Source: Escherichia phage 212
Direction: 5' to 3' (one strand)
Length of the DNA stretch: 64,000 nt
Sequence record: PQ765507
In this document: in pieces, positions 33,200-33,590 of the stretch
Numbering within the stretch: position 1 is the first letter of the stretch
How the letters are laid out: each line of letters starts with the position of its first letter
The notes under the pieces: model-generated
What the model was told of the DNA's origin: nothing
Databases searched by the model: none
Seen by the model: only the letters and a program-made list of their open reading frames with translations
Translations under genes and position numbers: made by a program

Positions 33200-33500
33200 G
33201 AAACCGGGTCGCTACCGGTAAGTCGTCGGACTGAAGTTCCCTGAATAAGACCCGACTTTAAGGCGTACATGAGTTGACCTCTTAAAGTCCCTTATCTCAC
33301 AGCTGAAACGGCGCACCGAATTATCGATTCGAGGAAATATCTTTGCCGTAAGCCGAGTAGCGTTTTTGACGGAACGTTCGGATATGGTCGAGATATGGCC
33401 TTTTAAAAATATTGAGTAGCGTCAACTGCTTAATAACCGGGTTCGAATCCCGGCGTTTCGTACAAACACTTGCCTTGCAGGTGGAACCCCGACAAGGTAT
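33200..33500 (+). ncRNA. candidate structured stable RNA(s) downstream of the tRNA array
   Basis: About 300 bp with no ORF of 60 aa or more, several hairpins, a tRNA-like T arm CCGGG-TTCGAAT-CCCGG at 33437-33453, ending at a strong terminator; no complete cloverleaf could be built by hand. Confidence 0.25.
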
Positions 33501-33529
33501 AGCCCCTTCCGAAAGGTTGGGGCTTTTTT
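33501..33529 (+). terminator. rho-independent terminator
   Basis: AGCCCC-(GAAA-containing loop)-GGGGCT hairpin followed by TTTTTT. Confidence 0.7.
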
Positions 33530-33590
33530 ATACCCCGAATAAATTTGAAATTTTCTTCAAAAAGTAGTGTACATCCGAATTGACCGGGTG

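What the first reader, a model, noticed from the sequence alone, without database searches (positions are those of the whole stretch)
33200..33532. About 330 bp ORF-free, structure-rich region after the tRNA array ending in a strong terminator: candidate stable RNA(s)
There is no ORF of 60 aa or more on the plus strand. The region has multiple hairpins, a perfect tRNA-like T arm (CCGGG-TTCGAAT-CCCGG at 33437-33453) without a complete cloverleaf, and a strong terminator at 33501-33529. As far as I recall, T4 encodes two stable RNAs of unknown function (species 1 and 2) in its tRNA region; this could be their counterpart or a different structured RNA.
Basis: partly seen in the sequence, partly recalled or inferred. 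Interest (0 to 1): 0.45.

Follow-up and report, generated by a model that had tools for sequence, protein, structure and literature searches.

The report
T4 species 1/2 stable RNA genes
The ORF-free stretch after the tRNA genes holds this T4-like phage's copies of two long-known small stable RNAs, T4 rnaD (species 2) and rnaC (species 1), whose function is still unknown; one is a tRNA-shaped RNA with a conserved loop-loop contact.

Summary
The region has no plus-strand ORF of 60 aa or more, a perfect T arm at 33437-33453, a hairpin plus U-tract terminator at 33501-33529, and more structure than shuffled sequence (z = -3.9).

The window comes from a Gaprivervirus, a T4 relative. Positions 33196-33318 are the homolog of T4 rnaD (species 2 RNA) and 33324-33462 the homolog of T4 rnaC (species 1 RNA). 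A conserved trailer and the operon terminator follow. rnaC is 98.6% identical to T4's and 100% to RB10's. rnaD keeps the conserved core but carries a different central hairpin.

Rfam has no family for either RNA, and no tRNA or tmRNA caller recognises them. About 800 phage records carry them. No counterpart turned up in the bacterial genome collections searched.

Covariation over 26 rnaC and 21 rnaD variants supports two folds. rnaC is a tRNA-like four-way junction with an acceptor stem and T arm. Its other two arms end in exactly complementary hexaloops, UUGACG and CGUCAA, which co-vary in one clade. rnaD is a 5' hairpin followed by a long irregular hairpin with a hypervariable tip.

The element is already known. 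Function is unknown in the papers found; my proposal of an accessory tRNA mimic acting in host-phage conflict is inference.

The parts
32627..32651 (+). Candidate T4-type middle promoter for the tRNA/stable-RNA operon: MotA-box-like TGCTTTA at 32627-32633, a 12-nt spacer, then TATTAT at 32646-32651.
   Evidence: Read from the sequence against the T4 middle-promoter consensus as I remember it; inferred, not tested. In T4 a middle promoter just upstream of the tRNA cluster drives the whole transcript (PMC2330249).
32711..32944 (+). tRNA array on the same strand: tRNA-Met(CAU) 32711-32785, tRNA-Asn(GUU) 32790-32862, tRNA-Arg(UCU) 32869-32944.
   Evidence: ARAGORN and Rfam RF00005 at 61-72 bits. 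JS98 has the same three tRNAs.
32960..33199 (+). 79-aa ORF inserted between tRNA-Arg and rnaD. Its stop codon (33197-33199) overlaps the first bases of the rnaD homolog.
   Evidence: phrog_33509, unknown function, E = 5e-57. The DNA occurs only in 23 Gaprivervirus-type records. In T4, RB10 and JS98 the tRNA-Arg abuts rnaD.
33196..33318 (+). rnaD homolog (T4 species 2 RNA), boundaries transferred from the RB10 and T4 annotation; conserved core 33199-33314. P1 hairpin 33203-33219. P2 33222 and 33224-33228 with 33309-33314, U33223 bulged. P3 33232-33238 with 33301-33307, containing a tandem G.A. Conserved internal loop CCCUG 33239-33243 and CUCAC 33296-33300. Hypervariable hairpin P4 33245-33295. 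The 3' tail is ACCG, where T4 and RB10 have ACCA.
   Evidence: Alignments. RNAalifold predicts P1, P2, P3 and the base of P4 on its own, and 11 of its 20 pairs show compensatory changes. Pair counts: 87.7% of cells paired against 35-49% in slid controls. CM hit of 89.5 bits.
33319..33323 (+). Spacer AAUUA between the two RNAs, conserved in T4 and RB10 and A/U-rich. It is a likely endonuclease cut site of RNase E type; this is inferred.
   Evidence: The RNase E assignment rests on my memory of its A/U-rich single-strand preference.
33324..33462 (+). rnaC homolog (T4 species 1 RNA), 139 nt. Acceptor-like stem 33325-33331 with 33454-33460, including a conserved tandem U.U. Long arm 33332-33401 with apical hexaloop UUGACG at 33366-33371. 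A/U linker 33402-33411. 8-bp hairpin 33412-33433 with hexaloop CGUCAA at 33420-33425. UAA 33434-33436. T arm 33437-33453. The 3' tail is U-ACA.
   Evidence: 98.6% identical to T4 rnaC and 100% to RB10 rnaC. Covariation on 26 distinct sequences: 92.5% of cells paired against 31-46% slid, and 16 of 34 pairs changed on both sides. The loop-loop helix is paired in 26 of 26 sequences, with A-U changed to G-C in the Marfavirus clade. The T4 RNAC Northern-probe template oligo in PMC9697503 is identical to window 33324-33381.
33463..33500 (+). Conserved 3' trailer (CAAACACUUGCCUUGCAGGUGGAACCCCGACAAGGU...) between the mature rnaC end and the terminator. It is presumably removed during maturation.
   Evidence: Nearly identical in T4 and RB10, and also present in JS98, which lacks rnaC. 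It differs from RB10 by a 1-nt and an 11-nt indel.
33501..33529 (+). Intrinsic terminator of the tRNA/stable-RNA operon: AGCCCC-UU-CC-GAAA-GG-UU-GGGGCU followed by U6.
   Evidence: Sequence and fold; conserved in T4 and RB10. In T4, transcription of the tRNA cluster terminates after the species I gene (PMC2330249).

Best explanation
The region holds two non-coding RNA genes, the Gaprivervirus orthologs of T4 rnaD (species 2 RNA, 33196-33318) and rnaC (species 1 RNA, 33324-33462). A conserved trailer and the intrinsic terminator of the tRNA operon follow.

Biogenesis (shown for T4, inferred here by homology). Both RNAs are co-transcribed with the tRNAs as one precursor and cut out by host RNA-processing enzymes. 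rnaC offers an RNase P-type substrate, a 7-bp acceptor-like stem stacked on a 5-bp T stem with a canonical T loop. The A/U-rich spacer and the trailer offer endonuclease and exonuclease entry points.

Folds (supported here by covariation). rnaC is a tRNA-shaped four-way junction in which the D arm is replaced by a roughly 70-nt arm and the anticodon arm by an 8-bp hairpin. The hexaloops of those two arms, UUGACG and CGUCAA, are exact complements. They should form a 6-bp kissing helix, either within one molecule or between two. rnaD is a 5' hairpin followed by a long irregular hairpin with a conserved internal loop and a hypervariable tip.

Function (inferred, about 0.35). They are accessory, trans-acting structured RNAs. 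rnaC would act as a tRNA mimic that occupies or diverts a host factor that recognises the acceptor/T-arm shape of tRNAs. rnaD would act as a scaffold presenting a fast-evolving hairpin. Both would matter only in particular hosts, like the neighbouring phage tRNAs that counter tRNA-targeting immunity.
For: Identity
- 804 phage records match. RB10 annotates rnaD and rnaC under the match, and the T4 reference annotates the same genes.
- Base-level alignments place the window on both genes.
- rnaC is 98.6% identical to T4 and 100% to RB10, while the adjacent tRNA-Arg is only 61% identical to T4's.
- The CM hit for rnaD scores 89.5 bits and is unique in the window.

Transcription and processing in T4
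- A primary transcript of about 1.75 kb is the precursor of eight tRNAs plus species I and II, and it ends after the species I gene (PMC2330249).
- RNAC and RNAD are detected by RNA-seq and Northern blot as late RNAs of unknown function (PMC9697503; PMC3014915).

Structure
- rnaC: 16 of 34 pairs carry double changes, 92.5% of cells are paired against 31-46% in slid controls, and 0 of 500 shuffles reach the observed values.
- rnaD: 14 of 26 pairs carry double changes, 87.7% paired against 35-49%. RNAalifold finds the same helices independently.
- Kissing loops: all six pairs are kept in 26 of 26 sequences, across two unrelated versions of the long arm. In the Marfavirus sequences both loops change together, to UUGGCG and CGCCAA.

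Against a purely local, cis role
- The two RNAs occur independently. JS98 and VR20-type phages have rnaD only. Karamvirus carries them at separate places inside its tRNA array. A Vequintavirinae phage has an rnaD-like element after a tRNA.

Functional hints
- One T-to-C SNP in rnaD arose in all three lines of a T4-like phage adapted to a semi-permissive E. coli host, with the virulence index rising from 0.17 to 0.98 (PMC12685909).
- T-even tRNA loci act as counter-defence loci against tRNA-cleaving immunity (PMC13096335).

No cellular counterpart
- blastn against complete E. coli genomes found nothing.
- Three motif scans of the GTDB species genomes (T4-type rnaC not scanned) and a metagenome collection gave either nothing or chance matches.
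Against: - No experiment in this phage shows that the RNAs accumulate. Their ends are transferred from T4 annotation.
- The functional part is inference. No binding partner, phenotype or target is known. As I recall, T4 deletions removing these genes grow normally on laboratory strains.
- The kissing-loop covariation rests on one clade, a single evolutionary event, and many column pairs co-vary spuriously in that clade.
- The T loop is not canonical in one subgroup (UGCAUGC in L055, L060 and L062).
- The 3' end is not CCA in most members.
- The acceptor stem carries two U.U mismatches. This and the two points above argue against full tRNA-like behaviour such as aminoacylation.
- I could not place the BW1 SNP on the fold, because the genome accession is not given in the paper.
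Confidence: 0.85

Rival explanations
1. The two elements act only in cis. They would be structured punctuation and 3' protection for the tRNA operon, providing RNase P and RNase E entry sites that release the tRNA-Arg 3' end and a stable 3' block against exonucleases. On this view they have no trans function after release.
For: They are always part of tRNA arrays and often start right after a tRNA CCA. rnaC has an RNase P-type acceptor/T minihelix. In T4 they belong to the same precursor as the tRNAs.
Against: - In this window a protein-coding ORF separates tRNA-Arg from rnaD.
- rnaC is 98.6-100% conserved while the tRNA next to it has diverged to 61%.
- Sequence-specific loops, a tandem U.U and a conserved internal loop are kept, which simple punctuation would not need.
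- The RNAs accumulate as stable species late in T4 infection.
- Phages lacking rnaC still have the trailer and terminator.
- A single rnaD SNP changes host-specific virulence.
Confidence: 0.25
2. The elements are decayed tRNA genes, that is tRNA pseudogenes or relics, with no selected function.
For: There is a perfect T arm and an acceptor-like stem without a full cloverleaf. One public record even annotates the homolog as a 96-nt tRNA-Phe.
Against: Conservation across genera is extreme. Many compensatory substitutions keep the helices intact. The non-tRNA parts, the hexaloops and the internal loop, are the most conserved. The T4 RNAs are stable and abundant.
Confidence: 0.04
3. The region encodes a small protein: the 51-aa TTG ORF at 33412-33567, which matches phrog_28391.
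For: The PHROG hit has E = 9.5e-19. Many phage records annotate 'hypothetical protein' over this stretch.
Against: - The ORF covers the 3' half of rnaC, the trailer and the terminator.
- Against RB10 it carries a 1-nt and an 11-nt indel inside the ORF, both frame-breaking.
- Substitutions are paired across helices rather than codon-patterned.
- It has a TTG start.
- T4 has an experimentally detected RNA here.
- The PHROG most likely clusters mis-called ORFs over a highly conserved RNA gene.
Confidence: 0.02

Closest known systems
Bacteriophage T4 species 1 RNA (rnaC) and species 2 RNA (rnaD)
   Same: These are orthologs. They share strand, order (rnaD then rnaC), position at the 3' end of the tRNA operon, spacer, trailer and terminator. 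rnaC is 98.6% identical. The first 49 nt of rnaD (33196-33244) are 96% identical to T4's.
   Different: The central hairpin P4 of rnaD is a different sequence, leaving 76% overall identity. The rnaD 3' tail is ACCG instead of the encoded ACCA. A 79-aa ORF separates tRNA-Arg from rnaD. The operon has three tRNAs instead of eight.
Canonical tRNA
   Same: rnaC has a 7-bp acceptor-type stem joined directly to a 5-bp T stem with a UUCGAAU loop. It has a four-way junction, sits inside a tRNA operon, and is probably processed by the same enzymes.
   Different: It has no D arm and no 7-nt anticodon loop. A roughly 70-nt arm and a 10-nt linker take their place. The acceptor stem has a conserved tandem U.U. 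The 3' tail is U-ACA rather than N-CCA, except in Marfavirus. ARAGORN and Rfam RF00005 do not call it.
tRNA-like domains of other non-tRNA RNAs: the tmRNA tRNA-like domain, bacterial YrlA (Y RNA-like), and the phage phi80 M3 RNA and P1/P7 C4 RNA precursors as non-tRNA RNase P substrates
   Same: Each is an acceptor/T-arm mimic grafted onto a different body. These RNAs are made by the tRNA-processing machinery but do not decode. This comparison rests on established knowledge and on PMC11143913.
   Different: ARAGORN makes no tmRNA call, and there is no G3.U70 or tag reading frame. Rfam YrlA does not hit the region. The body of rnaC, a long arm and short hairpin joined by complementary hexaloops, has no described counterpart that I know of.
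Kissing hairpin complexes with fully complementary loops (HIV TAR-TAR* hexaloops, ColE1 RNA I/RNA II)
   Same: Two hairpin loops of 6 nt are exact complements. From memory, such loops form stable 6-bp loop-loop helices.
   Different: Here both loops lie in one RNA of a tRNA-like fold. Whether they pair within one molecule or between two is untested.

Membership tests
T4 rnaC (species 1 RNA) | Sequence homology to the annotated T4 and RB10 rnaC over its full length | tested here: met
   137/139 identical to T4 and 139/139 to RB10; alignments.
T4 rnaC (species 1 RNA) | Position: last gene of the tRNA operon, after rnaD and before the terminator, on the same strand | tested here: met
T4 rnaC (species 1 RNA) | Accumulates as a stable RNA of about 140 nt in infected cells | not testable with these tools
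   Shown for T4 only (Northern blot, PMC9697503). That paper's probe template oligo is identical to window 33324-33381.
T4 rnaD (species 2 RNA) | Homology and shared fold with the annotated rnaD | tested here: met
   76% overall identity, 96% over the first 49 nt of the window rnaD. A CM built without window-type sequences scores 89.5 bits, E = 8e-21. The helices are kept.
T4 rnaD (species 2 RNA) | Encoded 3'-terminal ACCA, as in T4 and RB10 | tested here: not met
   The window has ACCG. Other members have ACCU, ACAG or ACCC, so this is not a family-wide feature.
Canonical tRNA | Cloverleaf recognised by tRNA callers (ARAGORN; Rfam RF00005 at 29 bits or more) | tested here: not met
   No call in 33196-33532.
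Canonical tRNA | Acceptor stem of 7 bp contiguous with a 5-bp T stem and a UUCRANY-type T loop | tested here: met
   33325-33331 with 33454-33460, and 33437-33453. Covariation A3-U70 to G3-C70 and in the T stem. Two positions of the acceptor stem are conserved U.U.
Canonical tRNA | Anticodon arm with a 7-nt loop, and a D arm | tested here: not met
   An 8-bp hairpin with the hexaloop CGUCAA and a roughly 70-nt arm stand in their place.
tmRNA | tRNA-like domain with a G3.U70 alanine identity pair plus a tag reading frame; detected by ARAGORN | tested here: not met
   No tmRNA call. Position 3:70 is A-U or G-C.
YrlA / Y RNA-like (Rfam RF02553) | Match to the Rfam model | tested here: not met
   The only YrlA hit (20.6 bits, sub-threshold) lies on the real tRNAs at 32724-32843, not in the region.
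Intrinsic (Rho-independent) terminator | G+C-rich hairpin immediately followed by a U tract on the transcribed strand | tested here: met
   33501-33524 followed by U6; conserved in T4 and RB10. The simple scan does not list it because of an interior mismatch.

The most novel reading that the evidence does not exclude
rnaC is a tRNA-shaped decoy. Its would-be anticodon loop is locked in a 6-bp kissing helix with the tip of a long arm, either folding the RNA into a compact body or joining two molecules head to tail. The exposed acceptor/T-arm face would trap or inhibit a host tRNA-recognising factor, such as a tRNA-targeting defence nuclease or a processing or modification enzyme. rnaD would be a conserved scaffold displaying a hypervariable hairpin that is under host-specific selection. 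Together they would be RNA-based counter-defence or host-range factors, which would answer a 50-year-old question about T4 species 1 and 2.
Probability: 0.2. Interest if true: 0.7.

Novelty: already known. Interest (0 to 1): 0.3.

Why it matters
The element is a known pair of T4-family stable RNAs, so the finding adds no new kind of system. Two things are still useful.

First, these RNAs are absent from Rfam, and in many of the phage records returned the stretch carries 'hypothetical protein' or no feature; one carries a false tRNA call. One PHROG family (phrog_28391) also appears to be built from such mis-calls.

Second, their function is still described as unknown in papers from 2010, 2022 and 2025. 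The covariation-backed folds obtained here give concrete mutants to test. These are the tRNA-like junction with complementary hexaloops in rnaC, and the conserved core with a hypervariable hairpin in rnaD.

The independent spread of the two RNAs through tRNA arrays of several phage genera (Tevenvirinae genera, Marfavirus, and a few Vequintavirinae), the convergent rnaD SNP and the counter-defence role of neighbouring phage tRNAs make a host-conflict function worth testing.

Tried and rejected
- Rfam at gathering threshold and at E up to 10: no family for the region, only chance-level sRNA hits.
- tRNA and tmRNA callers: nothing in the region.
- Protein-coding reading: rejected because of frame-breaking indels and paired substitutions. 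The PHROG hit is explained as mis-called ORFs.
- An alternative acceptor pairing of the rnaC 3' strand with the end of rnaD (UGAAACG, 33304-33310) or with an internal ACGGAAC: rejected. The A3-U70 to G3-C70 double change fits only the pairing with 33325-33331, and the internal alternative becomes an A.C mismatch in Karamvirus.
- A tmRNA-like reading, prompted by an 11-nt run that, as I recall, matches the tag stop-codon region of E. coli tmRNA: dropped as coincidence. There is no G.U identity pair and no ARAGORN call, and the stretch lies inside a covarying stem.
- A canonical K-turn at the tandem G.A of rnaD: dropped. The geometry does not fit, and the G.A pairs are Watson-Crick pairs in Karamvirus and Jiaodavirus.
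- Complementarity between rnaD loops and rnaC: not conserved.
- Search for cellular counterparts: blastn against E. coli complete genomes found nothing.
  - GTDB species genomes, Karam-type rnaC pattern: nothing. The T4-type rnaC motif was not scanned against GTDB.
  - GTDB species genomes, rnaD motif: only chance matches in high-GC organisms.
- Two rnaC scans of IMG/VR added only a few new sequence variants; most hits were loci already held or chance matches.
- A blind all-against-all covariation scan was uninformative because relatedness produces many spurious pairs.
- The BW1 SNP could not be placed on the fold, because the paper gives no accession.

Full report
**Observation.** The sequence at 33200-33532 is as described.
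- The longest plus-strand ORF inside it is a 51-aa TTG ORF at 33412-33567. An 81-aa ORF lies on the minus strand at 33430-33675.
- CCGGG-TTCGAAT-CCCGG sits at 33437-33453. A G+C-rich hairpin at 33501-33524 is followed by six U.
- ARAGORN and Rfam find three tRNAs just upstream: Met 32711-32785, Asn 32790-32862 and Arg 32869-32944. They find nothing in the region, even at E up to 10.
- The 337-nt stretch folds 3.9 standard deviations better than dinucleotide shuffles.
- The conserved element begins at 33196/33199 and overlaps the stop codon of a 79-aa ORF at 32960-33199.

**What it is.**
- blastn against 50,697 phage records gives 804 matching records, almost all T4-like phages of enterobacteria. 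The best match is 100% identity to Escherichia phage DCP80, a Gaprivervirus.
- The RB10 record under the match, and the T4 reference record fetched by accession, both annotate two RNA genes here: rnaD (species 2 RNA) and rnaC (species 1 RNA).
- Transferring those boundaries through the alignments gives five parts:
  - rnaD at 33196-33318
  - a 5-nt spacer AAUUA
  - rnaC at 33324-33462
  - a conserved trailer at 33463-33500
  - the terminator at 33501-33529
- rnaC is 137/139 identical to T4's and 139/139 to RB10's. The tRNA-Arg of the same operon is only 61% identical to T4's.
- rnaD is 76% identical overall. Its first 49 nt (33196-33244) are 96% identical to T4's, and most of the divergence lies in the central hairpin.
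- A covariance model built from 15 rnaD sequences, none of them of the window's type, finds 33199-33318 as the only significant hit in the 64-kb window, at 89.5 bits and E = 8e-21.

**What the literature says.**
- In T4 a primary transcript of about 1.75 kb from a middle promoter upstream of the tRNA cluster is the precursor of eight tRNAs and of species I and II RNAs. It terminates after the species I gene (PMC2330249).
- A 2010 review states that the biological roles of RNAC and RNAD are unknown (PMC3014915).
- A 2022 omics study confirms them by RNA-seq and Northern blot as late RNAs of 'yet unknown functions'. Its RNAC probe template oligo is identical to window 33324-33381 (PMC9697503).
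[quoted passage not shown] Virulence rose from 0.17 to 0.98 (PMC12685909).
- A 2026 paper shows that T-even tRNA loci serve as counter-defence loci against a tRNA-cleaving Septu system. It does not mention rnaC or rnaD (PMC13096335).

**Distribution.** The two RNAs are separable modules of phage tRNA arrays.

| Phage or group | rnaD | rnaC |
|---|---|---|
| JS98 (Dhakavirus) and VR20-type Gaprivervirus (L014) | present | absent; in JS98 the deletion is exact and the trailer remains |
| Karamvirus, e.g. Pet-CM3-4 | rnaD-like element after tRNA-Asn | about 1 kb away, between tRNA-Trp and tRNA-Gly |
| Moonvirus, Kanagawavirus, Gelderlandvirus | not seen in the short loci fetched | present |
| Jiaodavirus (KP185) | rnaD-like | not seen in the locus fetched |
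| Marfavirus (PWKp18) | rnaD-like | present |
| Vequintavirinae (W70, A73) | rnaD-like, right after a tRNA | not seen in the locus fetched |

blastn against 5,426 complete E. coli genomes found no match. A Karam-type rnaC pattern found nothing in one genome per GTDB species. An rnaD motif scan of the same collection returned only chance matches in high-GC organisms. The T4-type rnaC motif was not scanned against GTDB.

**Structure of rnaC.** I aligned 26 distinct sequences. A named structure keeps 92.5% of cells paired, against 31-46% when partners are slid by 1-3 columns. Sixteen of 34 pairs change on both sides, and no shuffle out of 500 reaches the observed values. The fold is a four-way junction with these parts:
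- **Acceptor-like stem,** 7 bp, 33325-33331 with 33454-33460. Pair 3:70 switches between A-U and G-C, and a tandem U.U at 4:69 and 5:68 is invariant.
- **Long arm,** about 70 nt, 33332-33401. It exists in two unrelated sequence versions.
- **A/U linker,** 10 nt.
- **Short hairpin,** 8 bp, 33412-33433. All eight pairs covary.
- **UAA,** then the T arm at 33437-33453.
- **3' tail,** U-ACA-A, conserved. In Marfavirus it is U-CCA-A.

The most informative feature concerns two loops. The apical hexaloop of the long arm (UUGACG, 33366-33371) is the exact complement of the hexaloop of the short hairpin (CGUCAA, 33420-33425).
- Both loops are invariant across both versions of the long arm.
- The exception is Marfavirus, where they read UUGGCG and CGCCAA, a change at paired positions that keeps all six pairs.
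- This argues for a 6-bp loop-loop helix.
- The caveats: it is one evolutionary event, unrelated columns also co-vary in that clade, and covariation cannot tell intramolecular pairing from a head-to-tail dimer.

So rnaC has the acceptor/T-arm face of a tRNA but no free anticodon-like loop. One subgroup has a non-canonical T loop, UGCAUGC.

**Structure of rnaD.** On 21 sequences RNAalifold predicts helices independently, and 11 of its 20 pairs carry compensatory changes. My structure adds six pairs and keeps 87.7% of cells paired against 35-49% slid. The fold has these parts:
- **P1,** a variable 5' hairpin, 33203-33219, followed by UAA.
- **P2,** 6 bp with a bulged U, G33222 and 33224-33228 with 33309-33314.
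- **P3,** 33232-33238 with 33301-33307. It contains a tandem G.A in T4-like members that becomes Watson-Crick pairs in Karamvirus and Jiaodavirus.
- **Conserved internal loop,** CCCUG and UCAC.
- **P4,** a hairpin at 33245-33295 that exists in at least four unrelated versions.

The 3' tail after P2 is ACCA in T4 and RB10 but ACCG here and variable elsewhere. A CCA end is therefore not a family feature.

**How it most likely works.**
- *Shown, for T4:* co-transcription with the tRNAs, release as stable RNAs, and late accumulation.
- *Inferred here:* a MotA-type middle promoter (TGCTTTA at 32627-32633, then TATTAT at 32646-32651) drives tRNA-Met, Asn, Arg, the 79-aa ORF, rnaD and rnaC, ending at the terminator at 33501-33529. 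RNase P would cut at the base of the rnaC acceptor-like stem. The A/U spacer and the trailer would be cut or trimmed.
- *Function, inferred at about 0.35:* accessory trans-acting RNAs in host-phage conflict, with rnaC as a tRNA-shape mimic and rnaD as a scaffold with a fast-evolving hairpin. The grounds are:
  - conservation stronger than that of the tRNA-Arg next to it
  - mobility of the two RNAs independent of each other and of any given tRNA
  - sequence-specific conserved loops
  - no counterpart found in the bacterial collections searched
  - dispensability on laboratory hosts, from memory
  - the convergent rnaD SNP
- *Main rival, about 0.25:* a purely cis role in processing and stabilising the operon.
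- *Unlikely:* tRNA relics and a small protein.

**Comparison and novelty.** The region is a member of the T4 rnaC and rnaD families. It is tRNA-like but not a tRNA, a tmRNA or a YrlA-type RNA. The element is already known. What may be new is the covariation-supported folds, the complementary hexaloops and the wide modular distribution, together with the fact that Rfam has no model for either RNA. I score interest at 0.3: an ordinary, correctly guessed feature attached to an old open question that these models make more testable.

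Noticed in passing
window 32960-33199 (+): A 79-aa ORF (phrog_33509, unknown function) sits between tRNA-Arg and rnaD, inside what is a pure RNA operon in T4, RB10 and JS98. Its DNA occurs in only 23 Gaprivervirus-type records. Its stop codon overlaps the first conserved bases of rnaD.
   Followed up: partly
window 33412-33567 (+): A 51-aa TTG ORF overlapping the 3' half of rnaC, the trailer and the terminator matches phrog_28391 (E = 9.5e-19). That PHROG is probably built from ORFs mis-called over the rnaC gene. Many phage records annotate 'hypothetical protein' here.
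   Followed up: partly
window 32627-32651 (+): MotA-box-like TGCTTTA, a 12-nt spacer and TATTAT lie about 60 nt upstream of tRNA-Met. This looks like a T4-type middle promoter for the operon.
   Followed up: no
L071 about 875-1020; L072 about 1375-1520; L065 about 712-850; L073 about 875-1010: In Karamvirus, Jiaodavirus and Marfavirus tRNA arrays, a further conserved non-coding block of about 140 nt (GAAAGUUAUCUUUCGG...GUAUAUGAGAGC...UUUCCGGAAGG...) directly follows the rnaD-like element and precedes the next tRNA. It may be a third stable RNA.
   Followed up: no
L006 1547-1642 (OK210076, Enterobacter phage KKP_3262): The public record annotates a 96-nt 'tRNA-Phe(gaa)' over the 3' two thirds of its rnaC homolog. 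This is a false tRNA call caused by the T arm and acceptor-like stem.
   Followed up: yes
L007 1497-1592 (OP778610, Escherichia phage W70, Vequintavirinae): An rnaD-like element with its own P1 and P4 lies directly after a tRNA in an rV5-like phage. Only about five such records showed close identity in the search, which suggests horizontal transfer of the module from T4-like phages.
   Followed up: partly
L004 1501-1700 (JS98); L014 (VR20-type): rnaC is missing while rnaD is kept. In JS98 the junction is clean and the trailer and terminator remain.
   Followed up: partly
L055, L060, L062 (rnaC homologs): In this subgroup the T loop reads UGCAUGC instead of UUCGAAU, while the T stem and the rest of rnaC are kept. 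The canonical T loop is therefore not essential to the family.
   Followed up: no
L065, L076, L079 (Marfavirus rnaC homologs): The 3' tail reads U-CCA instead of the U-ACA found in the other 23 sequences of the alignment. This clade is also the one with the UUGGCG and CGCCAA loop pair.
   Followed up: partly
window 33203-33219 (-): The simple scan reports a minus-strand terminator-like site here. It is the reverse complement of the rnaD P1 hairpin followed by a chance T-rich run.
   Followed up: yes
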